Source: Candidatus Dormiibacterota bacterium
GTDB taxonomy: Bacteria > Chloroflexota > Dormibacteria > Aeolococcales > Aeolococcaceae
Direction: 5' to 3'
NCBI GenBank assembly: GCA_963791435.1
Contig: CAWBSL010000003.1
Span: forward strand, 289,136-353,135
DNA: 64,000 nucleotides
A program made the translations under genes and the position numbers. The notes under the pieces were generated by a model, which saw nothing but the letters and a program-made list of their open reading frames with translations, did no database searches and was not told the DNA's origin. Shown in pieces: positions 2,415 to 39,095 of the stretch (the first letter of the stretch is position 1; each line of letters starts with the position of its first letter).

Positions 2415-2467
2415 TGCCGGGAGAGGGAGTCGAACCCTCACGAGGTTGTCCTCGGCGGTTTTTGAGA
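2415..2467. repeat. attL: 53-bp direct repeat identical to the 3' end of tRNA-Leu(CAA) at 16555..16607
   Basis: Exact 53/53 match tgccgggagagggagtcgaaccctcacgaggttgtcctcggcggtttttgaga; flanks diverge immediately outside. Confidence 0.85.
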
Positions 2468-2690: not shown

Positions 2691-3410
2691 TTATGACGTC
2701 TCTGGTCGGGCGAAGCTATCTCGCGCTTGAATATCAGTCGGCGGCTCCATCCTTCCGTCGCGGATGGCCAGATGGACGTCACATCGGGCATTCACCGCTG
2801 GGTCGTGGGTGGCGACTATTACCGTGGCGCCGGTTCGTGCATGCAGCTCGATGAGGAGCTCGACAATTGTGTCGCCGGTCGCAGAGTCGAGGTTCCCGGT
2901 GGGCTCATCCGCAAGCAGCAACGGTGGACTGACGATGAGCGCCCGCGCAATTGCGACCCGCTGCTGCTCACCACCAGACAGCTCCGACGGCAACGCATCA
3001 CCTCGGTCGCCCAGGCCCACCTGCTCAAGGAGTTCGAGCGCTCGACGCTGCAATGCCTTCCCGGCTTCGTAGGGAAGCAGCGGCGCTGCTACATTGTCAG
3101 CTGCCGTCAATGCGGGCAACAGGTGAAATCGTTGGAACACGAACCCCACCTTGCGCCGGTAGGTGACCAGCTTCCGAGGCGGCAGTTCGTCGAGCTGCGT
3201 CTCTCCCACCCTCAAGGTGCCCGACGTGAGGATGTCCATGCCACCGATCACGTGCAGCAGCGTGGACTTCCCCGATCCCGACGGACCAGTGATCGCCACC
3301 AATGACCCAGCAGCGATGTCGATGTCAACGTGGTCCAGTGCCGTCTGCGACCGCTCGCCGGCAGGATATTCGCGCGCCAGCCCACGTCCGGTGATCGCGA
3401 CGCCCGGCAT
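2691..3410 (-). CDS. ABC transporter ATP-binding protein (MacB/LolD/FtsE-like), island copy
   Basis: Walker A GPSGSGKST, signature LSGGEQQRVAIARAL, Walker B LLLADEPTGNLD; ~90% identical to 39096..39815. Confidence 0.85.
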   Translation of the reverse strand: MPGVAITGRGLAREYPAGERSQTALDHVDIDIAAGSLVAITGPSGSGKSTLLHVIGGMDILTSGTLRVGETQLDELPPRKLVTYRRKVGFVFQRFHLLPALTAADNVAAPLLPYEAGKALQRRALELLEQVGLGDRGDALPSELSGGEQQRVAIARALIVSPPLLLADEPTGNLDSATGDTIVELLIELHARTGATVIVATHDPAVNARCDVHLAIRDGRMEPPTDIQARDSFARPETS

Positions 3411-3413
3411 TGG

Positions 3414-5810
3414 TCAGTCCTCCGCCAGCGCTGCTGCGGGTGCCGTCTGCGATGCCCGCCAGGCAGGAATCATCAGCACCGCACCCACCAGGGCAAGTCC
3501 GATCATTGCGGCCAATATCGCCGAAGGCGCAACCGCTACTGCCGATCCCGTCAAGATTGCCGCGAGCCCAAGCCCAACCGCACCGCCGGCGATAGCACCC
3601 ACCACGCCGACCATCATGCCTTCCGTGAAGGCGAGACGGAAGAGCGTCGCGGGCCGCCATCCCGTGGCTGCCAGCACCGCCTGCTCCCCAGCACGATCGC
3701 GCAGGTTCACCGCAAGCACATCTGCGACGCTGAACGCGCCAAGCAGAAGCGCCAGAACCGCTGCAATCAGGTCCACGCTGCGCACCTGGAGACTCACCAG
3801 GTTGCCCAGTGCAGTCCCAACGACCTGGCCTTGAAATGCCAGTTGCACGGCGAGTAACAGCGCGAACGCCGCGACGCCGATGAACAACCCGAGCGCACCG
3901 GTGATCAAGCGCGAGGGACGGCGCAGCAGATTCGCACGCGCGATCCCAGAGACCTGCCGGACCGCACGGTGACGTCCGCCACCACCCGGCACGGAGTACA
4001 CCGCATCAAGCGGACGGCCGCGCGTCGCCGCATACGCAGGCGCGAGACCGGCAACGCACGCGAGGCCAAGGGCGATCGGCACCACCAGAAGTGCATGCCA
4101 CCAGGGCAGGTCAAGGCGCAGGGCCAGCGCCAGTATTTCGGCTAACGCTGCGCCAATCACACCCGTGACCATACCGACCAGGGCAAGCTCGCCCAGCACG
4201 AGTCCGAAGAGAGCTGCCCGACCCCATCCGAGACACGCCAGCACTCCGAGTTCGGTGCGTCGCGAGCGTACGCTCGCGTAGGCGCCGTTGGCGAGAAACA
4301 GTACGCAGACAACAAGCACGAGCACAAAGAGCACCAGGCTCTTCGCATCAACCGCGTTCAGCACCACGAGTGCTGCGCCCTTGCGCACCCAGCCTTCTGC
4401 CACGGTGAGCGCCGGCTCGCCGCAGCACCCGGCCGGAAGATCGACGTCAATGGTGGTGGGTGACGATCCTGCGGTGATGTCGACCTGCAAACCGGTCGCC
4501 TTCTTGATCGCTGTCGCTACCGCGAGGATGCGAGCGCGATCGATCGGCTCGAAGCCATGCACATTTGCCACTCGGACGCGAATCGCACTGATGGGAGCGG
4601 CGGTGTCCGTGTTGGCGTAGCGGGCGCAAGGTTCGCCGGGAGCGTTCACATAGCAAGAGTTGGAGAGCATCTGTTCAGCCGCTGTCAGGCTCGTGAGCAG
4701 AAGCGGCGGCTGAGCCACGTAGCCGCCTAGGTTCATCGTCGGTCCAAGTGGTCGATTGTCGAGCGCCTTTCTCGACGCGGCATTCGCACCGGTCACAACA
4801 GGCGGGTAGTACGTCTCCAGCGGCACCGCGCTCAGCGGGCTGAACCCGGGCAGCTTGTCCGGATCGAACCGCCCAACCTCATCGAGTCCCACAAAGCCTA
4901 TATGGAGGGTGTTCAGATTGTAGATGTCGTTGCCGCGGTGCAATGTAAGCCCACGGAACTGAGTGTCCTGGTTCCCAGGGGGCGCCAGCGTAAATGGCGG
5001 TTGGCCTGTCGGGTCCGAGTTCCAAATGCTGGCCGGATTACTCGTCGGAACCGCAATCAGTCCATTCGGGCCGGAGCGGTACTCGACCTGTGAGGTCGTC
5101 CAGTAGTTGTCCGACCCGCCGCCCTCGTCGAAGCCGTAGCCCGCGCTTCCACGTCCCGTCGACTGCATGCCGGCAAGGGCGTTCAGCGCGGCTGTGTAGC
5201 CGCTTTGCGCCGAAACGGCTCGCTGGGCCACGCTGGCACCGCCAAGACTTCCCAAGAAAGAACTCACTACGCCAGCGGTGGTGTTGGACAGTGCCGTCGC
5301 CACGTCGACCCCTGGCGGGAGGTTCAGACGCTGGATGCTCGCAGTCAGCGACTGGTCGAGGAACGTGCGCGACGAGGCGATCACGGGAAGGTCATCCTCA
5401 ATGACGTCCCCCGGCGCCTGCTGGGCCGGCGTGATCAGCCCCTGCAACTCAGATAGATACTGTCCCGCCACCAGGGTGTGTTGCAGGCCGACCAGCTTCG
5501 CTTCCTGCACCGGATCGACGGCGGACAGCAGCACGGGAAAGTTGAAAGCGATGGCGACGCCCGGCTGCGGACCCACCCCCAGGTCGGCGCCCGATCCGAC
5601 TGACGGAGTCTTTCCTGAGAAGCATTCGATAGCGCCGCCAACCGCGCTATCGAGTGGGCCGGTTGGCGCGTTTCCAAGCGCGTTTGCACACACCTGTGCC
5701 AGCGTCGCCTGGCCGGGTATCGCTTCGCCGAATGACGCCTCCGGCCCATGCGGCAGTTGGGGGTTGTAGTTGGGAAGCCGCATGAAGGCATCGCTCGGCG
5801 TGTAGTACAC
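3414..5810 (-). CDS. FtsX/MacB-like ABC permease, C-terminal ~800 aa (extracytoplasmic domain plus FtsX TM bundle); N-terminus displaced by frameshifts
   Basis: The C-terminal TM region is ~80% identical to the chromosomal paralog 36294..39092. The reading frame stays open upstream to ~5925 and is homologous there (YVYYTPSDAF vs YVYITRNAMAP). Confidence 0.6.
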   Translation of the reverse strand: MYYTPSDAFMRLPNYNPQLPHGPEASFGEAIPGQATLAQVCANALGNAPTGPLDSAVGGAIECFSGKTPSVGSGADLGVGPQPGVAIAFNFPVLLSAVDPVQEAKLVGLQHTLVAGQYLSELQGLITPAQQAPGDVIEDDLPVIASSRTFLDQSLTASIQRLNLPPGVDVATALSNTTAGVVSSFLGSLGGASVAQRAVSAQSGYTAALNALAGMQSTGRGSAGYGFDEGGGSDNYWTTSQVEYRSGPNGLIAVPTSNPASIWNSDPTGQPPFTLAPPGNQDTQFRGLTLHRGNDIYNLNTLHIGFVGLDEVGRFDPDKLPGFSPLSAVPLETYYPPVVTGANAASRKALDNRPLGPTMNLGGYVAQPPLLLTSLTAAEQMLSNSCYVNAPGEPCARYANTDTAAPISAIRVRVANVHGFEPIDRARILAVATAIKKATGLQVDITAGSSPTTIDVDLPAGCCGEPALTVAEGWVRKGAALVVLNAVDAKSLVLFVLVLVVCVLFLANGAYASVRSRRTELGVLACLGWGRAALFGLVLGELALVGMVTGVIGAALAEILALALRLDLPWWHALLVVPIALGLACVAGLAPAYAATRGRPLDAVYSVPGGGGRHRAVRQVSGIARANLLRRPSRLITGALGLFIGVAAFALLLAVQLAFQGQVVGTALGNLVSLQVRSVDLIAAVLALLLGAFSVADVLAVNLRDRAGEQAVLAATGWRPATLFRLAFTEGMMVGVVGAIAGGAVGLGLAAILTGSAVAVAPSAILAAMIGLALVGAVLMIPAWRASQTAPAAALAED

Positions 5811-6297
5811 GTAGTCGGCACCACCGGGATATACCGAGGCGCCGTTGGCCGCTTTCCAGGAAAGGCTGACTCTGGAAGAGTTGATGCGCGGCTGACGTGA
5901 TCGCCGATCCGATTGGGATCGTCACTGTCGCCGACAGGAACACGTAGCCGATGTTCGCGATCGGTGCGGCCACGGCCACACCCTGGAGCGACTCGATCCG
6001 CTGCCATTGCGCCAAGCTGATTCCGCCGAAGGTATCTGCGAGGTAGTTGTCCCGAACCAAGTTGCTCTGAGTCTCGACAGCGTTGGCCGCACCTTTCGGA
6101 CGTACCAGAATGTCGTAGGCTGGCCGCGCAGCCGCATCGACGGTGCCATGGACCGCCAGTTCACTCGTCGAGGCAGCGGCGGTGAGCAAGGAGAAGCTCA
6201 CCGCCGCGACCACGATGCCTGCTCCCAGAGCGATCGAGCGATCACGGCGCGATCGGACCTGCTGCCCAATCATCCGCCAAAGTCTCCTCGAGACCAT
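5647..6297 (-). pseudogene. N-terminal fragment of the same FtsX-like permease (separate frame); gene 3414..6297 is interrupted by at least two frameshifts near 5990 and 5865
   Basis: MVSRRLWRMIGQQVRSRRDRS...VAVAAPIANIGY aligns to the N-terminus of the intact paralog (MASKGMWRVIGRQVRSRRDRS...VTVAAPIAILGY). Homology then moves to the 5435..6007 frame (RVPVGDSDDPNRIGDH vs RVSVERVTDDGLTRQTDAP, and LPESAFP vs chromosomal LPESVFP), then to the 3414..5810 frame. Confidence 0.5.
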
Positions 6298-6450: not shown

Positions 6451-6479
6451 TTGACAGTTGGTCCCCAGAGTGCTACTAC
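6451..6479 (+). promoter_or_regulatory. candidate sigma70-type promoter for the precursor-peptide operon (TTGACA, 17-nt spacer, TACTAC)
   Basis: Consensus -35 hexamer TTGACA at 6451-6456 and a -10-like TACTAC 17 nt downstream, ~30 nt upstream of a GGAGGG RBS and ATG 6512, in a 160-bp divergent intergenic region. Confidence 0.35.
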
Positions 6480-6511
6480 CTCGTCAGGTCAATTCATGGA
6501 GGGCATCGAGC

Positions 6512-6709
6512 ATGGCGCACCTCGTCTCTAAGCTGGCTGACCGAGTCCTCGCTACCGTTTTGCCCGAAAGGAGCGCAGGGGCGCCCTGCATGCCATTCTG
6601 TGTGTGCGTTAAGGACAGTAGCTGTTCCGCCCCGGCTTGTGCAAATCGCTGCATCAACTCTTTCTGCCACACCACGTACATCTGCCACGATGGTTGCACA
6701 ACGTGCTAG
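6512..6709 (+). CDS. Cys-rich RiPP/bacteriocin-like precursor peptide (65 aa: 24-aa leader plus 41-aa core with 10 Cys)
   Basis: MAHLVSKLADRVLATVLPERSAGA / PCMPFCVCVKDSSCSAPACANRCINSFCHTTYICHDGCTTC; GGAGGG RBS 7 nt upstream of the ATG; no Sec-type signal; first gene of a co-directional operon with redox, export and peptidase genes. Confidence 0.6.
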   Translation: MAHLVSKLADRVLATVLPERSAGAPCMPFCVCVKDSSCSAPACANRCINSFCHTTYICHDGCTTC

Positions 6710-7040
6710 TAGACGACGTTCCGGCAGCAAATACTTAAGTAGCAACCGGCATCGCTTTCATTAGGTACAGTCCGGCGCCCTGGCGGATGATGAGTTGCGA
6801 GGTGCCTCGTCTTTCCTCAGTTCCGGTCGGCGTATGACGCGGCCCATGCTCCGCCGCCGCGCGCGCTGCACCTGTGGCATCCGACCACGCTGGAATGGGA
6901 TTGCGAGTTGAAGCACGCATTAGCAGCGCCGCGACTACTTGTGGCTTAGTCGAGCGGGTGAGTGCTTCACACGAAGGCACTGGTAGATACCTGGTACATA
7001 GAATGTCTCCGACAGATAAGAAGCGACGAGCGAGCGAGCG

Positions 7041-7562
7041 ATGCTTCCATATCTGACCATGTCGTGCAGGCTTCTCCTCGGCCTCGTCTTCCTCGTGTCA
7101 GCGGTGACCAAGCTGCGCACTGGCGCGACGCGGCGGGAGTTTGTGCTCTCTGTACGCGCACTTCTGGGCTACGAGCGGGCACTCTCCGTAATCCTTGCTA
7201 CCGCGTCGGTAGCCGCGGAACTTGTGATCGTAGTGCTCCTGACGCTGCCCAGCACCATGGCGTTCGGCTTCGTCACCGCGGCGCTTCTCCTCGTGGCATA
7301 CGCAGTTGTGCTTGGCCGTGCCCTCAAACGCGGTGTTCGGGCGCCGTGCCAGTGTATCGGCTCATCGACGGCCCCGATCCGTGCGTGGCTCATCGCTAGA
7401 AACATCGGCCTAGTCCTGGTCAGCCTCATAGGCCTTGCGGGTATACACTCAGAGCCTCAAATCCAAGTGTCAACCGGTTTGGCAGCGAGCATCGCGATAG
7501 CGATCTTTGGCGTCATCGTCGTCGCTTCCTTCGACGACTTCCTCTACCTTGTCGAGGGTTAG
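7041..7562 (+). CDS. MauE/DoxX-like polytopic membrane protein, putative disulfide-bond-formation (thiol oxidase/quinone-coupled) component
   Basis: 173 aa, ~4 predicted TM helices, CQC motif in a loop; architecture resembles MauE, which is required for disulfide formation in the methylamine dehydrogenase small subunit. Stop/start abut the next gene (7562/7565). Confidence 0.5.
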   Translation: MLPYLTMSCRLLLGLVFLVSAVTKLRTGATRREFVLSVRALLGYERALSVILATASVAAELVIVVLLTLPSTMAFGFVTAALLLVAYAVVLGRALKRGVRAPCQCIGSSTAPIRAWLIARNIGLVLVSLIGLAGIHSEPQIQVSTGLAASIAIAIFGVIVVASFDDFLYLVEG

Positions 7563-7564
7563 CC

Positions 7565-8128
7565 ATGGCAGTCGGAACGCTTGCCCTCGCCGCAATCGCC
7601 GTAGCAGTAAGTCTCTTTAGCCTCTTGCTCAATCTAGGGGTAGTGAGGCGACTCCGCGAATATTCCGCGCACTCCGGGGCATTTCCGGGCTTTGACTCGG
7701 GACCTCGTCCCGGGGCAGTGCTACCCGACTTTACCGCGAATACCACCGTCGGCTCTGCGATTAGCGCGACGGCGTTTGCGAACGGCGATGGGTACATCGC
7801 GTTCCTCTCAGCGTCATGCGAAGCCTGCAAGTCCCAATTCCCACTTCTCGCGCACTACGCTGACGCAGCAAGCATAGATCGGCTCCACTCTCTCGTGGTC
7901 GTGGCGGGTGATCCGAGGGGCGATAGCCTCTACGCGCGCGATGCGACACGCTTTGCGCAGGTTGTCCTCGAAGACGGATCGCTGGTAAGCGCCTTCGATA
8001 TCCGCGGCTTTCCTACACTCGTTGGTGTGCGCGATGGTCGGGTGGTCGTGAGCGCACCCTTAGTCGAGGCGCTCTACCAAACGAACACGAAGCAAGAGAG
8101 TGCCCACGCGGGTTCAGCGCGCTCCTAA
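7565..8128 (+). CDS. membrane-anchored thioredoxin-fold thiol:disulfide oxidoreductase (TlpA/ResA/DsbE-like)
   Basis: N-terminal TM anchor (LALAAIAVAVSLFSLLLNL) followed by a thioredoxin-like domain with a CEAC CxxC active site (FLSASCEACKS). Confidence 0.6.
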   Translation: MAVGTLALAAIAVAVSLFSLLLNLGVVRRLREYSAHSGAFPGFDSGPRPGAVLPDFTANTTVGSAISATAFANGDGYIAFLSASCEACKSQFPLLAHYADAASIDRLHSLVVVAGDPRGDSLYARDATRFAQVVLEDGSLVSAFDIRGFPTLVGVRDGRVVVSAPLVEALYQTNTKQESAHAGSARS

Positions 8129-8153
8129 TCTCGGATCGCGGTTGGCACTGGCG

Positions 8154-9953
8154 ATGAGGCTGTGCTGGACGTCTGCGCCCACATCGATAGCGCTAATGTT
8201 AGCGACCAGCATCGGGCTGGGGTTTGTCCCCGTTGCCTACGCCTTGCTAACGCGGGTAATCATTAACTCATTGGTCGGGCATCAAAGCGTGCCGACCATC
8301 CTCGGAATCGCAGGCCTCGCCATCACGACGGCCGCACTATTGATTTTAGCTCCACTCACTAGTTACGCCGTCGCTGAGTTGAATCGCAAGCTCGAGGTCG
8401 GCATGCAGGGTGACCTGTTTGCTGCGGTAGGACAACTGTATGACCTACGGCTATTGGAGAGCCCGAGATTCCTGGATCGATTGCGTCTCGCCCAGCAGGC
8501 GGGACTGAGTGCGCCGGCCCAGGTAGTTGCAGGTTGCCTGGCGACCGTCCAGAGCGGGGTCACGCTGATTGGCTTCGTAGCTGCGTTGGCGGTACTGGAT
8601 CCGTGGATCGCCGTACTCGTGGTCGGCAGTGGTATTCCGGCGATTGTCGCTGAGCTCCGCCTAGGCACATCACGTGCTGAGATGTATCTGCGCGTTAGCC
8701 CCTTTCGGCGTCGGATTCTTGGCTATATCTCGCTCTTGGTTGACCCGAATGCCGCTCAGGAGGTCCAAGCGTTCGGACTTGGCTCTCTTCTGAGGGAGCG
8801 ACTGCTGCGAGCGATTGATCACGCGACGCGGGCTGAACGTACCCAGGATCGACGTGAGGTACGGACGCGCACAGTGCTGGCATGCATTGCCGCTGCCGCA
8901 AGCGTCGCGAGCCTCAGTTTGGTAGCAGTGGGTGCGCTGCATGGGCAATTTAACGTCGGAGATGTCGCGATCGTGCTCGCGGCGCTTTCCACACTCCAAC
9001 TCAGCCTCTCCGGACTGGTTGCACAATTCGGTCAGATGAGTGGAGCATTGCGAATGCTCGACCACTATCGTGCCGTGATCGCCTCCGCAACGGAAGCGAC
9101 CAGCGGTACGAGCCGAGACGCTGGAAAGGCGCAGGTTGGTATTGGACGGCTGCGCCGCGGCGTGGAGTTGCGTGGCGTCTCTTTTCGGTATGACGAGAGT
9201 CAGCCCTGGGTTCTGCAAGATGTGGATCTGTTCATTCCATTCAACGCATCGTTGGCGCTCGTCGGTCCAAACGGATCCGGTAAGAGCACGATTGTCAAGT
9301 TGCTTTGCCGCTTCTACGATCCCACCCGTGGTGCAGTACTATGGGATGGCGTGGATTTGCGCGAGCTACCCGTCGTCGCTCTGCGTCGCCAAGTCAGTCT
9401 AGTTCTCCAGGATCCGGTTATGTACGATCTCAATGCAAGCGAGAACATTGGCGTTGGGAACGTGGCGTTACTCGCCGATCGAGACGCAATACGCCGAGCT
9501 GCCGATCTGGCCGACATCGACGACGTCCTCGCTCATTTACCTCACGGGTATGACACCCTCCTCAGCCGCCTTTTCTTCGATGATGCGGCTTCGGACGTTG
9601 GAATCGTCCTCTCGGCCGGACAAGCACAACGTTTGGCGATTGCCCGCGCCTTGATGCGCACCGATGCGGACCTGCTCATCATGGACGAGCCAAGCTCGTC
9701 GTTAGATGCCCAGGCGGAGCACCTTCTGCAAGAGCGCCTCAGTCAACTGCGTGGCGGTCGAGCCACGCTCTTGATCTCGCATCGGTTGAGTTCCGTTCGG
9801 GCTGCTGCTCAGATCGTTGTCCTGGACGGTGGCCGGGTCGTGGAAGTGGGTAGCCACCAACAGCTTCTGGAGGTCGGCGGGATGTATGCGGAACTCTTCC
9901 AACTCCAAGCGGCTGGATATGCAGATCTCACCCTGCCCCTCCGATCAAGTTGA
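8154..9953 (+). CDS. ABC exporter, fused 6-TM permease plus ATPase, no C39 peptidase domain; putative peptide exporter
   Basis: Walker A GPNGSGKST, signature LSAGQAQRLAIARAL, Walker B LLIMDEPSSSLD, H-loop ISHRL; N-terminal half hydrophobic. An alternative in-frame start at 8100 overlaps the upstream gene by 29 nt. Confidence 0.8.
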   Translation: MRLCWTSAPTSIALMLATSIGLGFVPVAYALLTRVIINSLVGHQSVPTILGIAGLAITTAALLILAPLTSYAVAELNRKLEVGMQGDLFAAVGQLYDLRLLESPRFLDRLRLAQQAGLSAPAQVVAGCLATVQSGVTLIGFVAALAVLDPWIAVLVVGSGIPAIVAELRLGTSRAEMYLRVSPFRRRILGYISLLVDPNAAQEVQAFGLGSLLRERLLRAIDHATRAERTQDRREVRTRTVLACIAAAASVASLSLVAVGALHGQFNVGDVAIVLAALSTLQLSLSGLVAQFGQMSGALRMLDHYRAVIASATEATSGTSRDAGKAQVGIGRLRRGVELRGVSFRYDESQPWVLQDVDLFIPFNASLALVGPNGSGKSTIVKLLCRFYDPTRGAVLWDGVDLRELPVVALRRQVSLVLQDPVMYDLNASENIGVGNVALLADRDAIRRAADLADIDDVLAHLPHGYDTLLSRLFFDDAASDVGIVLSAGQAQRLAIARALMRTDADLLIMDEPSSSLDAQAEHLLQERLSQLRGGRATLLISHRLSSVRAAAQIVVLDGGRVVEVGSHQQLLEVGGMYAELFQLQAAGYADLTLPLRSS

Positions 9954-9973
9954 GACGCCCACTGACCCGCGCT

Positions 9974-10444
9974 TCAGCGTTGTGCGCCTGTGCTGAGCCG
10001 GCGCACGACAACCCCCGTAATAAGGTCGCTCGCGATCGGACCCCACTGCTTGGAGTCCTGGCTCTCCGGATGATCGCCAACCACTACGATCGACTTTGTC
10101 GGGACGGTTGTGTGAGCAAACGTCGGATGGCCGCATACCACTTCTGATGGCATAGGAGCACCGCTTACTGCAACCAACCGCTTGACCATCCAGTCACCAG
10201 CAGTTGCGCCTGGGGGCAACTGCACCTGCGGTGGCGCTCGCAGGGTGATGATTGAGTTGACCCGGGCGCAGCGCCTGAGTCGGAGTACGAGAAGACGGTC
10301 GCCCGGCTGAAGCGCGGGAGCCATGCTCGATCCCACGACGCGAATCACAATGAATAGTCGCCGGAGCAGCCACCAGGAGAAGAGGAGGACTCCCGAAGTT
10401 CCGAGCCATAGAGTACCGCGGGCTCGGCTTCTGCGTCCCACCAC
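9974..10444 (-). CDS. type I signal peptidase (S26 family, short form)
   Basis: N-terminal TM, catalytic Ser box VVGSSMAP, Lys box WMVKRLVAVSG, box E VVVGDHPESQDSKQWG; 156 aa. Confidence 0.75.
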   Translation of the reverse strand: MVGRRSRARGTLWLGTSGVLLFSWWLLRRLFIVIRVVGSSMAPALQPGDRLLVLRLRRCARVNSIITLRAPPQVQLPPGATAGDWMVKRLVAVSGAPMPSEVVCGHPTFAHTTVPTKSIVVVGDHPESQDSKQWGPIASDLITGVVVRRLSTGAQR

Positions 10445-10558: not shown

Positions 10559-13477
10559 CTACCACTGCGCGAGCTCGGGTGACATCCCCTGCCCGCGCTC
10601 GAACTCCAGGTGCGCATCGATCTCGGGGGTGAGCCAACCGGCGACGGCCCTGCCCTCAAGTTGGTCGGACGGCCCGCCATTGGCGTCCTCCGCGTCGATG
10701 CGGTCCACCGCGCGGGCGACAAAGTCGTGCGCGGCACCCTCGGACATGCCTGCCTCACGCAGCCAGGCCTCCGCCTGGTCGTAGACACGCTGAACCACCA
10801 GGCGGTCAATCTCCTCCCCGGCCTCAACCCGGGTCGCCTCCTGGGCCAGCTCGGATCCGCCGAGGATCTCGACCAGGGCGCGCTGTCGATCTGTGGCCAT
10901 CGCCTCGAGGGTGATCCGCTCGGTCGTCTCGTAGCGCTCCGGGTAGTCGAGCGCCAACTCCTTCAATTCGCTGCGGGTCCACGCCTGCACGGTCCGCTCC
11001 TCGGCCGATCGGCTTGTTTCTCTCCAGTGCTCGACGCCGAGCGTGTCCCGCTCCGGCGGCTTGGACACCTCGTAGTAGTGGGTGGCCAGGGTGGCGCGTG
11101 ACATCGCGGTGTACGCCCATTCCCGGGTGGCGCCCTCCGACCCCACCACCAGGGCGATGTCGGCGGTCATCCCCTGCGCCTTGTGCACGGTCAGCGCATA
11201 GCCGCGGTCGATGGCGTCGTAGTGATTGGTGTCGAGGGTCAGCTGGCGCTTGTCGGGACGTTCCAGGGTCAGCGTCTGGTGATCAACATCGACGGCGGTG
11301 ACCACGCCACGGGTACCGTTGCTGACTGCACCGCTGCGCTCGTTGGCGAGACAGATCACCCGGTCGCCCACCTGGTACTCCTTGTCCCCCACGGTGAGCG
11401 CCGGACCGTGGACTCTCCCCTCGGCCACCGACCGGGCGTGGGCCAGTTCGTTGAGGGCGGCCACCTCGTCACGACGCCGGGCGAGGATGACCGTGTCGAG
11501 ACCGCCGGCCTCGAGCCGGGCGTGATCCTCGATCACCTGGACTCGCCGCTCGGCCACTGAGTGGGCGTCATGGATGCGGTCGTAGCGCTCGTACTCGCGG
11601 TACGCCTCGCGCGCCTGACCGTCGCGGAGCAGCTGCAGGGTCGCCCGTTCCCAGTCGTAGTGCTGGCGGATGTTCTCGTGCAGCTCCACCCGGCCGATGT
11701 GATCGCTCAGGGTGCGCATCGGTGCACCCGCTTCGATGGGCTGGAGCTGGAAGGGATCGCCAACCACCACCAGCTTGGCCTCGTCGCGCGCCGCCAGCGA
11801 CACCAGCTCGGCGAGCTGGCGGTCACCGAGCATGCCGGCCTCATCGACCACGAGCACACCGCCGAAGGGCAGGCGCTCGACCTGGAGCTGATGGAGTGTC
11901 GCCGCCACGGTGGTCGAGGCGATGTCCGAGCCCTCCTCGAGGAGCTCGGCAGCGCGTCCTGCCAAAGCACAGCCGACCACCTCGACGCCGGAGGCATCAA
12001 ATGCTTCACGGCAGACCTCGAGCGCGTACGTCTTGCCCACCCCGGCGTCCCCTTCGATCACCAGCACGCCGGCGGGGCTGAGGCAGATCTCCTGGATCAT
12101 GGCCTTCTGGTCCGCGGTGAGCGTCCGACGCGTTGCCATCGCTGCCGCGACGGTGTCGGCGCGGGCCATCCCGACGTCCGCGCCGGCACGCGCTTGAGCA
12201 GACGCCACCATGCCGCGTTCCAGGGCGAGCATCTCCGGCGTGGTGTATCGGAGGTCGTGGCCGGTCTCGGTCCAGCGCAGCAGCGCCTCGGGCTCGGTCT
12301 CGCCCTGGCGCGGCCGGGGTGGCAGAGGCTGGACCGAGTCACGGTCGGCGAGGATCCAGTCGACCGTCAACTCAAGCTGCGCACGGCTCATGCCGAGGGG
12401 TGCGTGCGAGGCGACGGCGCGGATGAGATCGCGGCGCGTGAAGGTCGCCTGCCGGGCGGTGAGCCCGTGCACGCCGAGGATGTCCACCGAGCGCTGCACG
12501 TCGAGACGCCGCGGTTCGAGCGCACCGGGCTCACGCCGGAGCACGGCCTGCACTGTCTCGCCGTCGAGCCCGACGCTCGCGGCGCGCTCGTGCCATCGGG
12601 CGAAGAGATCCTCGGTAGCCGCAACCTCGTGCTTGCCCTCGCGGGTGTCGAGGGTGGCCACCTCGCGCCCGGAGCGTGTGGTGACGTCATACGCGGCCGC
12701 AGCGGCGTCGATCTGCAGCGACCTGCGCGAGAACTCGCGCCGCTGGGCATCCGTGATGCCAACAACCGAGAAGCAGCCCTTGCCGTCGACCACCGTGGAG
12801 ATGCCGAGCTCGCGGACGAGACGGTCGCGCCACTCCGCCTGGACGATGGCTCCGGCCGCCGCGGCGTGCTGGTACAGCGGTTCGCTGTGTAGCTGGCTCC
12901 AGCTCCCGTCGGGCCGCTGCACCCATGTCGGGACAGTGATGTGGGTGTGGAGCTGCGGGTCAACGGTGACGATGCCGGTGGCCGGATCAGTCACCGGGCG
13001 GGCGGTGCGATGCACGAACTCGGGCATGACCAGCTTGGCGCGCACCGCCTCGGTGGTCTTGGTGTCCGGGTTGTACTGGCGCGCCCAGCCGGCGTTGGCC
13101 TGGAGATATTCGGCGGCGGCCTGGACTCCCTCGCCGTGGATGCGCAGGATCATGGACCTGGTGCGCTCGTCACCGAGCGCGTAGAGGATGCTCACATCCT
13201 TGGGCGCTGACACGGTCACGTCGAAGGCGACGACCGTCTGTCTCCGCCAGTGTTTGCCGAGGTCCTCACCGGTGCGTGGATGTGTGCCGGCCAGCACTGC
13301 CGCAAAGTCGATGTCGGTCACCTCGCCGCGCAGACCCAACACTTCCGCACCGGGTCCTCTCCATCGTCCTGGTGACTCACCGCGGGCGGTGTAGTACTCG
13401 AGCTGCTGCTGCGCTACCGCATCGCGCAGATACCGCACCGCCTGCTCGACGCTGGTGAGCTTGCCGATGGAGATCAC
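10559..13477 (-). CDS. MobF-family relaxase/helicase (TrwC/TraA-like), 972 aa
   Basis: N-terminal relaxase domain with His-triad-like LHTHITVP; central RecD-like helicase Walker A LVIEGDAGVGKTY; the C-terminal third is specific to this element. Confidence 0.8.
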   Translation of the reverse strand: MISIGKLTSVEQAVRYLRDAVAQQQLEYYTARGESPGRWRGPGAEVLGLRGEVTDIDFAAVLAGTHPRTGEDLGKHWRRQTVVAFDVTVSAPKDVSILYALGDERTRSMILRIHGEGVQAAAEYLQANAGWARQYNPDTKTTEAVRAKLVMPEFVHRTARPVTDPATGIVTVDPQLHTHITVPTWVQRPDGSWSQLHSEPLYQHAAAAGAIVQAEWRDRLVRELGISTVVDGKGCFSVVGITDAQRREFSRRSLQIDAAAAAYDVTTRSGREVATLDTREGKHEVAATEDLFARWHERAASVGLDGETVQAVLRREPGALEPRRLDVQRSVDILGVHGLTARQATFTRRDLIRAVASHAPLGMSRAQLELTVDWILADRDSVQPLPPRPRQGETEPEALLRWTETGHDLRYTTPEMLALERGMVASAQARAGADVGMARADTVAAAMATRRTLTADQKAMIQEICLSPAGVLVIEGDAGVGKTYALEVCREAFDASGVEVVGCALAGRAAELLEEGSDIASTTVAATLHQLQVERLPFGGVLVVDEAGMLGDRQLAELVSLAARDEAKLVVVGDPFQLQPIEAGAPMRTLSDHIGRVELHENIRQHYDWERATLQLLRDGQAREAYREYERYDRIHDAHSVAERRVQVIEDHARLEAGGLDTVILARRRDEVAALNELAHARSVAEGRVHGPALTVGDKEYQVGDRVICLANERSGAVSNGTRGVVTAVDVDHQTLTLERPDKRQLTLDTNHYDAIDRGYALTVHKAQGMTADIALVVGSEGATREWAYTAMSRATLATHYYEVSKPPERDTLGVEHWRETSRSAEERTVQAWTRSELKELALDYPERYETTERITLEAMATDRQRALVEILGGSELAQEATRVEAGEEIDRLVVQRVYDQAEAWLREAGMSEGAAHDFVARAVDRIDAEDANGGPSDQLEGRAVAGWLTPEIDAHLEFERGQGMSPELAQW

Positions 13478-13870
13478 CGCGAAAACTCGCCCTGCACGAG
13501 CTTCAGCGTAGGGAGAAAACGCCTACGCAGCGCTTACATTCTCGGAACGTTTGATCTGGAAGAAATCAGCGATGCAACTGTGTGCGCTTCAGGGTCGTCG
13601 ATGCGTGTGCGCGAGGCAATGATGGCGGTGAGAACGGACGCGTGAAGCAGATATGCGTTTGTTGAAGGTGAGAGGAGATGGCCGGCAGACGGAGGACCGA
13701 AGTGATGACGAGGAGCACGCGGCGCTGCCGACGCGTCCGATCCCGCAGACTACCCGCCGACGCGGCTGCCCTACTGTCGCGGTGCCAGCAGCGCGGCCCG
13801 AATTCGCGCAGTTACCGACATGCGCGCCACCTGCAAGGCGCAGCTCACCAGCACGAGTGGACGCGGCGTT

Positions 13871-14008
13871 CGCGAATAGCGCGGTGCGCTCGAGCGGCGC
13901 AACGTTCGCGAATAGCGCGACGCTCGCGAAGAGCACGACGCGCGCGAATAGCGCGACGCTCGCGAATAGCGCGACGTTCGTGAATAGCGCGGTGGGCGCG
14001 AACCTCGC
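13871..14008. repeat. tandem iteron array, ~7 copies of an 18-bp unit (CGCGAATAGCGCGACGYT), upstream of the relaxase gene
   Basis: Units start at 13871, 13907, 13925, 13943, 13961, 13979 and 13997 with strict 18-bp phasing; copies degenerate at the edges. The ORFs 13653..14102, 13678..13983 and 13771..14106 are translation artefacts of the repeat. Confidence 0.8.
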
Positions 14009-14558
14009 GAAGTGCGCTGGACGCGCGACGTCTGCGGGAAGCGTGATGTGCGCTGGAATCGCGATGTGCGCGGAATTCGCGCGATCCGCACCATTCGCAT
14101 GATCACGTGGAAGGCGCGAGTGCCGCTAAGTAGCTTTCATCGTAGGAAGCGTGTCAACGTAGTGCGTACGCTCGCCGGGCGGATGCGTCCTGAGCTATCT
14201 GTCAGCCACGTCCTGGAGCCGCGGTGTCAAGGACTCGCGGACTTACCGAGCAGGCTTGCTGGTGTGCTGGTGTGCGGGAAAAGTGTAGGCGCTACGTAAG
14301 CAAATGCATGCCATGCTCGTGCCATGGATATCGCCGACGTGTCGCCGGGTACCGGCTATGTGCGCGGGAAGCCTCGCGCGGATCAGACGAAACTCCCTTG
14401 GGGTGCCGATGAGATGGTGTCGCCTCAAGGCACACAAGGGGCCTACGCTGACAGGGATGCACGAGGCCGACGAGGAACGCCCCCCACGCCAGCGCCATTG
14501 TTCGAGTTCGGCCACGCCGACACCTGTTGACATTCCGCCTGCATCGACACGCGCTCCG

Positions 14559-14720
14559 ATGCTGCTCACCGTTCGCGACCTGGAAGCTGAACTGCAACTC
14601 GGTCGCACACGCACCTACGAGCTGTTGCGCTCGGGCTCCATCCCCGTTATCCGCGTCGGACGCGCACTCCGCGTACCGCGCGATGCGCTGCGCCGCTGGG
14701 TAGACGAGCAGACCGCGTGA
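14559..14720 (+). CDS. xis: excisionase/helix-turn-helix DNA-binding protein (Xis family)
   Basis: 53 aa; MLLTVRDLEAELQLGRTRTYELLRSGSIPVIRVGRALRVPRDALRRWV is a typical MerR-like excisionase HTH; sits upstream of int. The ORF track places it inside a longer ORF starting at 14304. Confidence 0.65.
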   Translation: MLLTVRDLEAELQLGRTRTYELLRSGSIPVIRVGRALRVPRDALRRWVDEQTA

Positions 14721-14738: not shown

Positions 14739-14990
14739 TCAGCTCGCCGGTTGTACCGGTCGCACCGCGTCGTGAAGCCCCTCTGGATCGAGGTCTGCAC
14801 CGTTCGCCCACACCAGCGTGCCCAGCTCTGGATCCACGCTGACCCTGTTGAACTGAGCAATATCACGGAGCGGCTCGAACATCTCGCCCCAGAGCTCGTC
14901 GGCCAGGTCGATGTCGCCGACGACCCCGTCGCTGAACGTGAGCCGGAGCCTGTACTCACCGAGGCGCTCCACGCGCGTGACCTTGACCAT
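14739..14990 (-). CDS. DUF2442-family protein
   Basis: 83 aa; RLRLTFSDGVVGDIDL...ANGADLDPEGL pattern; paired with DUF4160 as is commonly seen. Confidence 0.5.
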   Translation of the reverse strand: MVKVTRVERLGEYRLRLTFSDGVVGDIDLADELWGEMFEPLRDIAQFNRVSVDPELGTLVWANGADLDPEGLHDAVRPVQPAS

Positions 14991-14999
14991 TTCCCAATC

Positions 15000-15270: not shown

Positions 15271-16449
15271 TCAGCCCGTGGTGATCAGGCGGGTGAGCCG
15301 GTCGGCCGCGTCGTCGTGCAACTCCTGGAGGACGTCTGCGTACGTGTCGGCCGTGATGCCGATCGTGGAGTGTCCGAGCACAGTGCTGACCACCTTCAGC
15401 TCCGTCCCGCTCGCCAGCATCAGGGTCGCGGCGGCGTGGCGCAAATCGTGGAAGCGACGCACGATCAGGCCGGCTCGGCGAAGGCCGTTCTCGAAGCGAT
15501 GGGTCATCCCCGTCGGCTCCACCGGATGACCGGTGGGGCGCGTGAACACCAGCCCGGCGATCGGCTCGTGCCAGGCCGATCCGATGTGGAGGCGATCCTC
15601 ACGCTGGCGCTGTCGCTGGACTGCGAGCAGGTCGACCAGGGGATCGGGAATCCGCAACGTCCGCCGAGACCGCTTCGTCTTGGGCTCGAGGATTTTGAAG
15701 AGCACCTCCGGGTCGGATCGCTGGTCACGAGGGATGCGGTGCAGAGCGCCGGTGACGCGCAGCACCTTGCGCTCCAGGTCGACGTCGTCCCAGCGCAGTC
15801 CGAGGATCTCGCCCTGACGCATCCCGAGATACAGGGCCGTGCCCACGACCGCCTCGAGCTCGGTATCGCGAAAAGCGTCGAGGATCGCTCGGGCTTCCTC
15901 GGGGCGCACCGAGGCTGCCTTCGTCGCGGACACCTCGAGGGGCTCGGCCAGGGCTGCGGCGTTGCGAGCCACCGTGCCCCATCGCTGAGCGTCAGCTAGG
16001 GCCGAACGGAGCACCGCGCGAGCGTGGTTGACGGTTCGAGGCGCCAGGCCACCGGCGACCGCCTGCCGCATGGCGACGTTCACCTGCTGCGGGGTGAGTT
16101 GCGCCAGCTTGACCCTCCCCAGGAGAGGAATCAACTGGTACTTGATGAGGCTGCGGTACCGCCGCATGGTGGTCGGGCGGATGCTGGTCTGCCCCTCGAT
16201 CCAAGTGGCGAGAAAGTCGCCCACGGTCTGGCGGTCGGAGGCCGGTGCCACCCCGAGAGCGAGCCCGCGGATGGCCGCGTTCATCTTCGCGACCGCGTCG
16301 GCGCGGCTCTTGCCATACAGGCTGCGCCGGACCTGGCGGCCTCTCGCGTCAAAGCCGACCGTTACGCGCGCCTCCCACTGGCCCGGGCGTCGCTCTCGGA
16401 TCGTCCCTTCGCCAAGCCCTCGGCGCCTGCTCGTCACCCCTTCCTCCAA
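15271..16449 (-). CDS. int: site-specific tyrosine recombinase/integrase
   Basis: C-terminal catalytic region HDLRHAAATLMLASG...GHSTIGITADTYADVL (HxxR plus Tyr); N-terminal SAM-like domain; lies ~100 bp from the tRNA-Leu 3' end. Confidence 0.85.
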   Translation of the reverse strand: MEEGVTSRRRGLGEGTIRERRPGQWEARVTVGFDARGRQVRRSLYGKSRADAVAKMNAAIRGLALGVAPASDRQTVGDFLATWIEGQTSIRPTTMRRYRSLIKYQLIPLLGRVKLAQLTPQQVNVAMRQAVAGGLAPRTVNHARAVLRSALADAQRWGTVARNAAALAEPLEVSATKAASVRPEEARAILDAFRDTELEAVVGTALYLGMRQGEILGLRWDDVDLERKVLRVTGALHRIPRDQRSDPEVLFKILEPKTKRSRRTLRIPDPLVDLLAVQRQRQREDRLHIGSAWHEPIAGLVFTRPTGHPVEPTGMTHRFENGLRRAGLIVRRFHDLRHAAATLMLASGTELKVVSTVLGHSTIGITADTYADVLQELHDDAADRLTRLITTG

Positions 16450-16554: not shown

Positions 16555-16607
16555 TGCCGGGAGAGGGAGTCGAACCCTCACGAGGTTGTCCTCGGCGGTT
16601 TTTGAGA
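16555..16607. repeat. attR: 53-bp direct repeat copy lying within tRNA-Leu(CAA)
   Basis: Identical to 2415..2467. Confidence 0.85.
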
Positions 16608-16637
16608 CCGCTGCGTCTACCATTCCGCCACCCCGGC
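16555..16637 (-). tRNA. tRNA-Leu (anticodon CAA), type II with long variable arm
   Basis: Reverse complement reads GCCGGGGTGGCGGAATGGTAGACGCAGCGGTCTCAAAACCGCCGAGGACAACCTCGTGAGGGTTCGACTCCCTCTCCCGGCA; cloverleaf with 7-bp acceptor stem including one G-U pair, CUCAAAA anticodon loop, long variable arm. Confidence 0.85.
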
Positions 16638-36215: not shown

Positions 36216-36293
36216 CCGCGACCTTCTGCATGACGCTTCTCATCCGATTGGGGGATGTCTGCCGGCGAGGAACGAGAAGTCATGATCCCGGCC

Positions 36294-39092: not shown

Positions 39093-39095
39093 CCG

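What the first reader, a model, noticed from the sequence alone, without database searches (positions are those of the whole stretch)
6451..10444. Mobile-element-borne operon: 10-Cys precursor peptide with dedicated MauE-like oxidase, TlpA-like thioredoxin, ABC exporter and signal peptidase
Five co-oriented or adjacent genes encode a leader-bearing, extremely cysteine-dense 65-aa peptide, a MauE/DoxX-like membrane protein, an anchored CxxC thioredoxin, a C39-less ABC exporter and a short type I signal peptidase. MauE is the factor needed for disulfide formation in the methylamine dehydrogenase small subunit. There are no radical-SAM, lanthipeptide, thiopeptide or lasso genes here. This combination reads as a self-contained secretion and oxidative-folding pathway for a 5-disulfide cystine-knot-like peptide, possibly a bacteriocin, that I do not recognise as a described RiPP or bacteriocin class. 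An alternative is a secreted metal-binding, metallothionein-like peptide.
Basis: partly seen in the sequence, partly recalled or inferred. Interest (0 to 1): 0.85.

Follow-up and report, generated by a model that had tools for sequence, protein, structure and literature searches.

The report
Mobile cassette for a disulfide-rich secreted peptide
A 14-kb mobile element in an uncultured actinobacterium carries a conserved five-gene cassette that most likely exports, trims and disulfide-folds a 41-residue, 10-cysteine peptide; the same kind of cluster was flagged by a genome-mining study in 2020, and I found no report that its product has been characterised.

Summary
Window 6512-6709 encodes a 65-aa precursor with a 24-aa leader and a 41-aa core holding 10 Cys. 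It is followed by a MauE protein with a CXC motif, a membrane-anchored CxxC thioredoxin, an ABC exporter without a C39 domain, and a convergent S26 signal peptidase.

The same five genes recur in at least nine other actinobacterial loci: Streptomyces chromosomes and plasmids, Kitasatospora, Amycolatopsis, Streptosporangium and metagenomes. All 13 distinct precursors share a 24-28-aa leader (24 aa in most) ending in an invariant A-x-A. None has a Cys in the leader, and every core has an even Cys count (6, 8 or 10).

The best reading is a leader-guided secreted peptide. The S26 peptidase removes the leader, and a MauE/thioredoxin pair working like DsbB/DsbA forms the disulfides.

The cluster is cargo of a 14.2-kb integrative mobilizable element in tRNA-Leu. 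That cargo also includes a MacB/BceAB-like ABC pair, possibly for immunity.

It is not unrecognised. decRiPPter (2020) listed homologous Streptomyces precursors as "MauE" candidate RiPP families. I found no report of a characterised product. The peptide's function, fold, export route and membrane topology remain inferred.

The parts
2415..2467 (.). Left att repeat of the integrated element: a 53-bp exact copy of the 3' part of tRNA-Leu.
   Evidence: Exact direct repeat with 16555-16607.
2691..3410 (-). ABC ATPase, 239 aa, of a MacB/BceAB-like transporter. Putative immunity or accessory transport.
   Evidence: PF00005 at 117 bits. It is 87% identical to the ATPase that flanks the peptide gene in L010.
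3414..6297 (-). FtsX-type permease, about 960 aa with two FtsX domains. In the window it is split by one extra T at 5873.
   Evidence: PF02687. It is 75% identical to the 950-aa L010 protein, in two reading frames that switch at 5872/5873. L001 lacks this T, and deleting it restores a 960-aa ORF. The window also has indels in polA and uvrB, so this is probably an assembly error.
6451..6479 (+). Candidate promoter: -35 TTGACA (6451-6456), a 17-nt spacer ending in TGC, and -10 TACTAC (6474-6479).
   Evidence: The -35 hexamer and the TGn motif are conserved with L010 in an otherwise divergent intergenic region. The consensus scanner did not call it.
6512..6583 (+). Leader of the precursor, 24 aa: MAHLVSKLADRVLATVLPERSAGA. 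It is an amphipathic helix followed by P-x3-A-x-A.
   Evidence: A22 and A24 are invariant across the aligned precursors, and P18 is present in most. The leader holds no Cys, and its longest uncharged run is 7 residues.
6584..6709 (+). Core peptide, 41 aa with 10 Cys, plus the stop codon: PCMPFCVCVKDSSCSAPACANRCINSFCHTTYICHDGCTTC.
   Evidence: Predicted monoisotopic mass is 4390.71 Da reduced and 4380.63 Da with 5 disulfides.
7041..7562 (+). MauE-family membrane protein, 173 aa with 5 predicted TM segments. The C103-Q-C105 motif lies in the loop after TM3. Putative quinone-linked disulfide generator, analogous to DsbB.
   Evidence: PF07291 at 78.5 bits. CXC, K24 and E60 are invariant in 8 homologs. 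The function of the CXC site comes from the preprint.
7565..8128 (+). Membrane-anchored thioredoxin-fold protein, 187 aa, with C85-E-A-C88 and a cis-Pro loop. MauD/TlpA/ResA-like.
   Evidence: Its start lies 3 nt after the MauE stop.
8100..9953 (+). Half-size ABC exporter, 617 aa (TMD + NBD), with no C39 peptidase domain. Its start overlaps the thioredoxin gene by 29 nt.
   Evidence: Best family hits are MsbA/HlyB/NHLM-type, all far below their cut-offs, and there is no C39 hit. It is 70% identical to the L010 homolog from residue 9 onward.
9974..10444 (-). Short S26 type I signal peptidase, 156 aa. Ser40 sits in GSSMAP, Lys88 in VKR, and a GDxxxSxDS box is present. Putative leader peptidase.
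   Evidence: TIGR02227 at 49.6 against a cut-off of 47; PF10502. The motifs are invariant in 6 homologs.
10559..13477 (-). MobF/TrwC relaxase-helicase of the element.
   Evidence: NF041492 MobF at 208 bits against a cut-off of 100; PF08751 at 229 bits.
13862..14077 (.). Array of about 12 copies of an 18-bp iteron. Its role is unknown (oriT, regulator or replication sites).
14304..14720 (+). Xis-like HTH_17 protein.
   Evidence: PF12728 at 39 bits.
15271..16449 (-). Tyrosine integrase.
   Evidence: PF00589 at 77.9 bits.
16555..16637 (-). tRNA-Leu(CAA). Positions 16555-16607 are the right att repeat.
   Evidence: ARAGORN, Rfam tRNA at 55.8 bits, and the repeat.

Best explanation
The locus makes a small secreted, disulfide-locked peptide.

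1. The 65-aa precursor is translated with a 24-aa amphipathic leader.
2. The cassette's own ABC exporter, which has no protease domain, moves the peptide across the membrane (inferred).
3. The membrane-anchored S26 peptidase cuts after the invariant A-x-A (...SAGA|PC), releasing a 41-aa core (inferred from motif and co-occurrence).
4. The anchored CxxC thioredoxin oxidises the ten cysteines to five disulfides. The MauE protein re-oxidises the thioredoxin through its CXC loop and passes the electrons to a quinone, as DsbB/DsbA or MauE/MauD do (inferred by homology).
5. The adjacent MacB/BceAB-like ABC pair probably protects the producer.

The product is most likely an antagonistic, bacteriocin-like peptide, but that is the weakest step. 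The whole cassette is cargo of a 14.2-kb integrative mobilizable element inserted in tRNA-Leu.
For: - **Gene identities:**
- **Conserved cassette.** Peptide-MauE-Trx-ABC-S26 recurs in Streptosporangium, metagenome loci L007 and L010, Amycolatopsis, Kitasatospora and Streptomyces chromosomes, and Streptomyces plasmids.
- **Gene order varies.** It is inverted in Streptosporangium, and the S26 gene is convergent in the window and L010. Linkage is therefore functional and not only inherited.
- **Leader.** It is conserved, almost always 24 aa, with A at -3 and -1 invariant. That is the specificity of signal peptidase I (established -3/-1 rule).
- **Core.** It is hypervariable. The peptide is the least conserved gene between the window and L010: 43% identity against 53-87% for the others.
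- **Cysteines.** All 13 distinct precursors have an even core Cys count (6, 8 or 10) and none in the leader.
- **Catalytic motifs are invariant:** MauE CXC, Trx CxxC with cis-Pro, and the S26 Ser/Lys boxes.
- **MauE function.** MauE replaces DsbB in E. coli and needs its CXC motif (preprint).
- **Precedent.** DoxX + thioredoxin pairs are assigned to disulfide formation in class I lasso peptide clusters (PMC7168211).
- **Accessory transporter.** A MacB-like ATPase + FtsX pair lies beside the cassette in 3 loci: the window, L010 and L012.
- **Operon signals.** The MauE, Trx and ABC genes abut or overlap (3-nt gap, 29-nt overlap), and the candidate promoter and RBS are conserved with L010.
Against: - Nothing here is experimental for this locus or its family.
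- The AlphaFold model of the precursor is low-confidence (pLDDT 53), so the fold and disulfide map are unknown.
- The thioredoxin's nearest solved relatives (Etrx1, ResA) are mostly reductases.
- A crude positive-inside count puts the Trx domain and the MauE CXC loop on the cytoplasmic side, which conflicts with extracytoplasmic folding.
- The leader ends like a Sec signal peptide, so Sec export cannot be excluded.
- The cores are near-neutral (net charge -2 to +1), unlike typical cationic antimicrobial peptides.
- The FtsX gene is frameshifted in the window, although this is probably an assembly error.
Confidence: 0.62

Rival explanations
1. Sec-dependent secretion. The leader is a short Sec signal peptide, and the S26 enzyme is simply a dedicated signal peptidase. 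The ABC protein is not the exporter of the peptide. It might confer immunity, or export a thiol redox buffer as CydDC does.
For: - The leader has the layout of a Sec signal: an n-region with K/R, a short hydrophobic stretch, then P-x3-A-x-A.
- S26 enzymes normally act on Sec substrates.
- The ABC protein also hits the CydC and CydD models at about 165 bits.
Against: - The hydrophobic stretch is interrupted by D/E/R/K in nearly all members. The longest uncharged run is typically 6-8 residues, which is short for actinobacterial Sec signals (my own knowledge).
- The ABC gene is present in all eight loci whose sequence extends beyond the Trx gene, and it overlaps or abuts the Trx gene.
- The CydC/D scores are lower than the MsbA/HlyB-type scores, and all are far below their cut-offs.
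Confidence: 0.18
2. Maturation on the cytoplasmic face. The thioredoxin domain, the MauE CXC loop and possibly the S26 domain face the cytoplasm. The peptide is oxidised and trimmed inside the cell, then exported folded by the ABC transporter.
For: - In all 8 Trx homologs, the N-flank of the TM has no K/R and the C-flank has +3/-1.
- In the MauE homologs, loop 1 and, where the crude TM segmentation resolves it, the CXC-bearing loop carry most of the K/R. The other loops carry almost none.
- Most S26 homologs lack N-terminal positive charges.
- The S26 protein also matches the Ni-SOD maturation protease model at 39.7 bits. Its substrate is cytoplasmic (my own knowledge).
Against: - MauE proteins complement a dsbB deletion, so their CXC loop must reach the periplasm.
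- The K/R residues next to the CXC motif may be functional and not topogenic.
- The nearest solved thioredoxin relatives are all extracytoplasmic.
- The charge count is crude and was not made with a trained predictor.
Confidence: 0.1
3. Reduced-thiol product. The MauE/thioredoxin pair keeps the exported cysteines reduced or shuffles them, and the peptide acts as a secreted metal-binding, metallothionein- or chalkophore-like molecule.
For: - TlpA/ResA/Etrx relatives are reductases.
- The preprint cites an earlier study that proposed MauE as a reductase.
- The window-type cores contain 2-3 His.
Against: - An even Cys count in 13 of 13 precursors is what pairing predicts and is not required for metal binding.
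- Half of the cores have no His.
- No metal transporter or metal regulator was found in any of the loci.
- MauE has been shown experimentally to act as an oxidase.
Confidence: 0.07
4. The small ORF is a chance ORF, and the MauE/Trx/ABC/S26 genes serve another substrate, such as a cytochrome or methylamine dehydrogenase.
For: No Pfam, NCBIfam or PDB family matches the peptide.
Against: - The ORF keeps the same position, the same leader and a good RBS in at least 10 loci.
- No mauA/mauB/mauG or ccs/ccd genes were found in the element or in the related loci.
Confidence: 0.01

Closest known systems
decRiPPter 'MauE' candidate RiPP families (Kloosterman et al. 2020, PMC7794033)
   Same: A mauE homolog, in one family with a mauD homolog as well, lies next to a precursor with at least 8 Cys. 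The three Streptomyces precursors in their S2 table share the window's leader (..L..R.L...[LV]P...A.A). A profile built on the window peptide retrieves them.
   Different: They were treated as three separate candidate families and only in Streptomyces. Their paper does not mention the S26 peptidase, a thioredoxin, or the shared A-x-A leader, and it does not characterise a product. The window copy belongs to a different core subfamily (C-x-P-[FY]-C..., 10 Cys). It sits in an uncultured actinobacterium, on an integrative mobilizable element, with a MacB-like ABC pair.
Methylamine dehydrogenase maturation (MauE/MauD) and the MauE oxidative-folding pathway (bioRxiv 10.64898/2026.03.05.709764)
   Same: A MauE membrane protein with a CXC site is paired with a membrane-anchored CxxC thioredoxin. 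The client is cysteine-dense: the MADH small subunit has six disulfides.
   Different: There are no mauA/B/G genes here. The thioredoxin fails the MauD equivalog cut-off (22.8 against 188.6 bits). The client is a 41-aa leader-bearing peptide with its own exporter and leader peptidase.
Class I lasso peptide clusters (humidimycin/siamycin: HumE DoxX + HumF thioredoxin; PMC7168211)
   Same: An actinobacterial peptide gene cluster carries its own DoxX/MauE-superfamily membrane protein and thioredoxin, assigned to disulfide formation, plus ABC transport.
   Different: There is no lasso cyclase, B protein or RRE. The count is 3-5 disulfides, not two, and the leader is removed by an S26 peptidase.
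Sublancin 168 operon on prophage SPbeta (sunA-sunT-bdbA-sunS-bdbB) - from my own knowledge, not checked here
   Same: It is a mobile-element-borne bacteriocin operon that encodes its own thioredoxin-like (BdbA) and membrane (BdbB) thiol-disulfide oxidoreductases and an ABC exporter.
   Different: BdbB is DsbB-like, not MauE. SunT carries a C39 protease and cuts a double-glycine leader. Sublancin is S-glycosylated and has two disulfides.
Nisin-type export logic (NisT + NisP) - from my own knowledge
   Same: An ABC exporter without a protease domain is paired with a separate membrane-anchored extracellular leader peptidase.
   Different: NisP is a subtilisin-like protease, and the substrate is a lanthipeptide with thioether rings, not disulfides.
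Defensin-like bacteriocins of Actinomycetota (actifensins, PMC6989792; title and abstract only)
   Same: They are small cysteine-stabilised ribosomal peptides from Actinomycetota with highly variable cores.
   Different: There is no detectable sequence relationship. I did not check whether actifensin loci carry MauE, Trx or S26 genes.

Membership tests
MauE family (PF07291), DsbB-like disulfide generator | Match to PF07291 above the gathering score | tested here: met
   78.5 bits against a cut-off of 27.
MauE family (PF07291), DsbB-like disulfide generator | CXC active-site motif in the loop between TM3 and TM4 | tested here: met
   C103-Q-C105 follows TM3 and is invariant in 8 cassette homologs. 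The requirement for the motif comes from the preprint.
MauE family (PF07291), DsbB-like disulfide generator | CXC loop on the extracytoplasmic side, and oxidase activity (dsbB complementation) | tested here: inconclusive
   A crude charge count favours a cytoplasmic loop. Activity cannot be tested with these tools.
MauD / TlpA-ResA-type anchored thioredoxin | Thioredoxin fold with CxxC and a cis-Pro loop, plus an N-terminal membrane anchor | tested here: met
   C85-x-x-C88 and P150 are invariant. The profile matches Etrx1 at 2e-13 and ResA at 5e-12. One N-terminal TM segment is predicted.
MauD / TlpA-ResA-type anchored thioredoxin | NCBIfam MauD equivalog score (TIGR02661) | tested here: not met
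   22.8 bits against a cut-off of 188.6. It is MauD-like in its pairing and its anchor, but it is not a MauD equivalog.
Type I signal peptidase (S26) | Family score plus the Ser/Lys dyad boxes | tested here: met
   TIGR02227 at 49.6 against 47 and PF10502 at 45.7 against 22.9. G-S-S40-M-A-P, V-K88-R and GDxxxSxDS are invariant in 6 homologs.
Type I signal peptidase (S26) | Cognate substrate with small residues at -3 and -1 | tested here: met
   A22 and A24 are invariant across the aligned precursors and are followed directly by the Cys-rich core. Actual cleavage was not tested.
Bacteriocin/AMS-type ABC exporter with C39 peptidase | N-terminal C39 domain, a double-glycine leader, and the TIGR01193 cut-off | tested here: not met
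   There is no C39 hit. TIGR01193 scores 168 against 524. The leader ends A-x-A, not GG.
decRiPPter MauE candidate RiPP families | A mauE homolog adjacent to a precursor with at least 8 Cys that is homologous to the listed precursors | tested here: met
   P0012 equals the strain 2112.3 precursor. P0010 and P0011 differ by 1 and 2 residues from the CS081A and T7A precursors.
Methylamine dehydrogenase (mau) or cytochrome c maturation clusters | Structural or partner genes nearby (mauA/B/G; ccdA, ccsA/B, ccm) | tested here: not met
   None was found among the element's genes scanned with Pfam/NCBIfam, nor in the gene tables of the related loci. The rest of the window was only partly annotated.
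Known RiPP classes (lanthi-, sacti-, lasso, thiopeptide/YcaO) | A class-defining enzyme in the cluster | tested here: not met
   No LanB/C/M, radical SAM, lasso B/C or YcaO hit was found in the element or in related loci.
Integrative mobilizable element | Direct repeats at a tRNA, an integrase and a relaxase, and no own mating-pore genes | tested here: met
   The 53-bp repeats, tRNA-Leu, the tyrosine integrase, HTH_17 and the MobF relaxase are all present. No T4SS or FtsK/TraB-like gene was found among the scanned ORFs between the repeats. The small ORFs at 13.5-14.3 kb were not scanned. Excision and transfer were not tested.

The most novel reading that the evidence does not exclude
The cassette defines an uncharacterised class of actinobacterial natural products: leader-guided mini-proteins of 33-49 residues locked by 3-5 disulfides. 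The class markers would be a dedicated S26 leader peptidase, a protease-less ABC exporter and a MauE/MauD-like oxidase pair. These would be the first small-peptide clients of the newly described MauE oxidative-folding pathway, and they spread on plasmids and integrative elements. In the most unusual version, which I put at about 0.1 on its own, the charge bias is real and the disulfides are made on the cytoplasmic face before export.
Probability: 0.5. Interest if true: 0.75.

Novelty: new variant of a known kind. Interest (0 to 1): 0.6.

Why it matters
If the model holds, the cassette is a compact, portable five-gene module that secretes and correctly folds a very cysteine-dense peptide in high-GC Gram-positive bacteria.

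- **A scaffold family.** It would give a natural family of hypervariable disulfide-rich scaffolds, with at least five core subfamilies seen here, to screen for antibiotic or other activity.
- **A client for MauE.** It would supply a defined physiological client for the MauE pathway, whose general role in disulfide formation was proposed only in 2026.
- **A leader-removal route for genome mining.** It would supply an S26 peptidase cutting at A-x-A, which I did not find reported for such clusters.
- **A tool for biotechnology.** A self-contained oxidative-folding and export cassette could help produce knottin-like peptides in actinomycetes.

Tried and rejected
- **Word-indexed homolog search with the single peptide** found only an identical copy and a frameshifted copy. 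Exhaustive phmmer added two true relatives and one spurious eukaryotic sushi-repeat protein, which I rejected as a Cys-rich repeat match.
- **Genome-contig scan with close MauE homologs** gave a single locus. The metagenome-contig scan gave none.
- **AlphaFold2 of the precursor with an 11-sequence alignment** gave pLDDT 53 and pTM 0.28. I judged it unusable, so I ran no fold search.
- **Pfam, NCBIfam and PDB profile searches with the peptide family** found nothing meaningful.
- **The 81-aa minus-strand ORF at 6735-6980**, called by gene finders in L001 and L002, I take as spurious. The 6710-7040 spacer is not conserved with L010, and no gene is called there.
- **The 64-aa ORF upstream of the L010 peptide** has no counterpart in the window.
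- **Rfam** found nothing in the cluster beyond the tRNA.
- **The consensus promoter/terminator scan** found no more sites than shuffled sequence gives.
- **Megablast of 24 kb against plasmids** found no related plasmid.
- **A real pseudogene reading of the FtsX frameshift** was considered and set aside, because the same window has indels in polA and uvrB.
- **Source organism.** The polA ORF had no exact match in the collection. Near-identical ENA and Logan metagenome contigs exist, but none carries a taxon name.

Full report

Yes. ORF listing and family scans confirm all five genes at the stated coordinates.

- **Precursor, 6512-6709 (+).** It encodes MAHLVSKLADRVLATVLPERSAGAPCMPFCVCVKDSSCSAPACANRCINSFCHTTYICHDGCTTC, and GGAGGG lies 8 nt before the ATG. 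The last 41 residues hold 10 Cys. No other 41-residue stretch in any frame of the 64-kb window reaches that density: the next best has 8, in Arg-rich off-frame sequence, and the background Cys fraction is 2.9%.
- **MauE, 7041-7562.** PF07291 scores 78.5 bits against a cut-off of 27.
- **Thioredoxin, 7565-8128.** This is an N-terminally anchored CxxC protein.
- **ABC exporter, 8100-9953.** This is a fused ABC exporter without a C39 domain.
- **S26 peptidase, 9974-10444 (-).** TIGR02227 scores 49.6 against a cut-off of 47.

MauE, the thioredoxin and the ABC gene are tightly packed (a 3-nt gap and a 29-nt overlap), so they form an operon. The S26 gene is convergent.

**2. Is it a functional unit? 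Evidence from other loci**

The single peptide has almost no database relatives, but the few that exist opened up the family.

- **Streptosporangium sp. NPDC002524.** A genome scan with MauE found the same five genes in a different order, including a 63-aa ORF with 8 Cys.
- **Metagenome loci.** Two peptide relatives from the exhaustive search lie in metagenome contigs with the order peptide-MauE-Trx-ABC(-S26).
- **Named genomes.** A profile of seven precursors then retrieved members from Streptomyces, Kitasatospora and Amycolatopsis. Their loci all read peptide-MauE-Trx-ABC-S26 on one strand.
- **Plasmids.** Two Streptomyces plasmids carry the cassette next to an integrase or IS elements.

The genes flanking the cassette differ from locus to locus, so the five genes are the conserved module.

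**3. What the family comparison shows**

- **Leader.** It is almost always 24 aa. It is an amphipathic helix (hydrophobic residues at i, i+1, i+4, i+5 and so on), then usually a Pro, then A-x-A. A22 and A24 are invariant, and the Cys-rich part starts within 0-7 residues, usually 0-2.
- **Core.** It is hypervariable and falls into at least five subfamilies. Within each subfamily the Cys positions are kept. Between the window and L010 the peptide is the most diverged gene, at 43% identity. The others are S26 53%, MauE 58%, Trx 68%, ABC 70%, FtsX 75% and ATPase 87%.
- **Cys parity.** All 13 distinct precursors have an even number of core Cys (6, 8 or 10) and none in the leader. Complete pairing into disulfides predicts this. 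Metal binding or thioether chemistry does not require it.
- **Catalytic motifs.** These are invariant in the cassette enzymes: MauE R-G-x4-C-x-C-x-G plus K24 and E60; Trx F-x-S-x2-C-x2-C and a cis-Pro; S26 G-x-S-M-x-P, K-R and G-D-x4-S-x-D-S.

**4. Mechanism**

A 2026 preprint shows that two MauE proteins replace DsbB in E. coli and need their CXC motif. It proposes quinone coupling and a thioredoxin-fold partner such as MauD or DsbA.

The thioredoxin here is of the TlpA/ResA/Etrx/DsbF type by profile search. Its only NCBIfam hit is a weak one to MauD that includes the membrane anchor.

A-x-A at -3/-1 is the classical recognition site of signal peptidase I, and an S26 gene is present in every locus whose sequence extends far enough to show it.

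The model that follows is leader-guided export, S26 cleavage after A24, and oxidation of ten Cys by Trx, which MauE then recycles.

- **What the sequences show:** gene identities, motif conservation, gene linkage, the leader and core architecture, and Cys parity.
- **What is inferred:** the export route, the cleavage site, the redox direction, the number of disulfides and the biological activity.

**5. Open points**

- **Export route.** The leader looks like a weak Sec signal. Its hydrophobic stretch is usually only 6-8 uncharged residues and is interrupted by charges. I favour the ABC exporter, by analogy with protease-less LanT exporters paired with separate leader peptidases (my own knowledge), but Sec is not excluded.
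- **Topology.** A crude count of K/R around the predicted TM segments puts the Trx domain and the MauE CXC loop inside the cell in every homolog where the segmentation resolves them. This contradicts the periplasmic loop implied by dsbB complementation. I could not resolve this conflict.
- **Fold.** AlphaFold2 gave pLDDT 53, so 'cystine knot' is untested.
- **Function.** Three observations point to an antagonistic peptide with self-protection. First, a MacB/BceAB-like ABC pair lies beside the cassette in three loci. Second, SARP, AraC or XRE regulators lie beside it in others. Third, the core evolves fast. All of this is circumstantial, and the cores are near-neutral, not cationic.

**6. Context in the window**

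Exact 53-bp direct repeats at 2415-2467 and 16555-16607, the second being the 3' part of tRNA-Leu(CAA), bound a 14.2-kb element. From left to right it carries:

- the ABC ATPase and the FtsX permease;
- the five-gene cassette;
- a MobF relaxase;
- an 18-bp iteron array;
- an Xis-like HTH protein;
- a DUF2442/DUF4160 pair;
- a tyrosine integrase.

No mating-pore genes were found among the ORFs I scanned, so it is an integrative mobilizable element. The cargo has lower GC3 (0.63-0.73) than the integrase and relaxase (0.85), which suggests a different origin.

The host is an actinobacterium. A mycothiol S-transferase gene lies just outside the element. Near-identical contigs come from ENA and Logan metagenomes.

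**7. Sequence quality**

The FtsX gene is split in the window by an extra T at 5873. A 99.9%-identical contig lacks this base, and removing it restores a 960-aa ORF.

Relative to another 99.86%-identical contig, the window also has single-base insertions that split polA and uvrB. I therefore treat the FtsX frameshift as a probable assembly error. A frameshifted copy of the peptide gene in an ENA assembly (P0002) may have the same cause, though I did not check that.

**8. Comparison with what is known, and novelty**

decRiPPter (PMC7794033) listed three Streptomyces 'MauE' candidate RiPP families, with precursors of at least 8 Cys. It reasoned that MauE and MauD might modify them. Those precursors are homologous to the window peptide.

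That paper does not mention the S26 peptidase, a thioredoxin or the common leader, and it characterised none of these candidates. Further full-text searches found no follow-up. RefSeq labels the peptides 'hypothetical protein'.

Experimentally known systems each share one part of the logic:

- MADH maturation by MauE/MauD;
- class I lasso peptide clusters with a DoxX + thioredoxin pair (PMC7168211);
- the sublancin operon with BdbA/BdbB, and nisin NisT/NisP (both from my own knowledge).

No described system that I found combines all the parts.

I rate the locus a new variant of a known kind. It is a disulfide-stabilised ribosomal peptide with dedicated thiol-disulfide oxidoreductases. The family has already been flagged computationally, and I found no experimental study of it.

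**9. Verdict**

- The main mechanism has confidence of about 0.6.
- Interest is 0.6.

Noticed in passing
window ~21577 and ~25767 (also 5873): Single-base insertions relative to a 99.86%-identical ENA contig (L018) split polA (915 aa in L018, a 657-aa ORF in the window) and uvrB (677 aa against 482 aa). The window sequence therefore carries indel errors at roughly one per 4-5 kb, and any frameshift in it should be read with caution.
   Followed up: partly
window 36255-39815, next to tRNA-Thr 36144-36217: This is an intact chromosomal paralog of the element's MacB/BceAB-like pair. The permease is 945 aa and 50% identical, with a conserved C-terminal membrane half. The ATPase is 88% identical. 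An ECF sigma factor (39976-40575) and a DUF4179 anti-sigma-like protein follow. It could be an orphan immunity or sensing module for related peptides.
   Followed up: partly
window 13862-14077: An array of about 12 tandem 18-bp iterons (consensus CGCGACGCTCGCGAATAG) lies between the relaxase and the Xis-like gene of the element. Its role is unknown (oriT, replication or regulator sites).
   Followed up: no
L001 (Logan ERR10755935), equivalent to window 4210 and 6069: A 99.9%-identical copy of the element has a different 1-nt insertion and a CAG-to-TAG change in the same FtsX permease gene. These could be independent real inactivations or assembly errors, and I could not tell which.
   Followed up: partly
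L023 (S. atratus plasmid NZ_CP108285) and L024 (Streptomyces sp. NBC_00376 plasmid NZ_CP107962): The same cassette occurs on Streptomyces plasmids next to an integrase or between ISAs1 and IS3 transposases. The precursors have 6 and 8 Cys. Mobility of the cassette therefore recurs across loci.
   Followed up: partly
window 14739-15269 (-): A DUF2442/DUF4160 gene pair sits beside the integrase. I did not examine what it does.
   Followed up: no
window 7565-7660 and homologs: The conserved motif LGVV[RK]RLR lies directly after the thioredoxin's membrane anchor, and there are no positive charges before the anchor, in all 8 homologs. NCBI's MauD model aligns across this region as well.
   Followed up: partly
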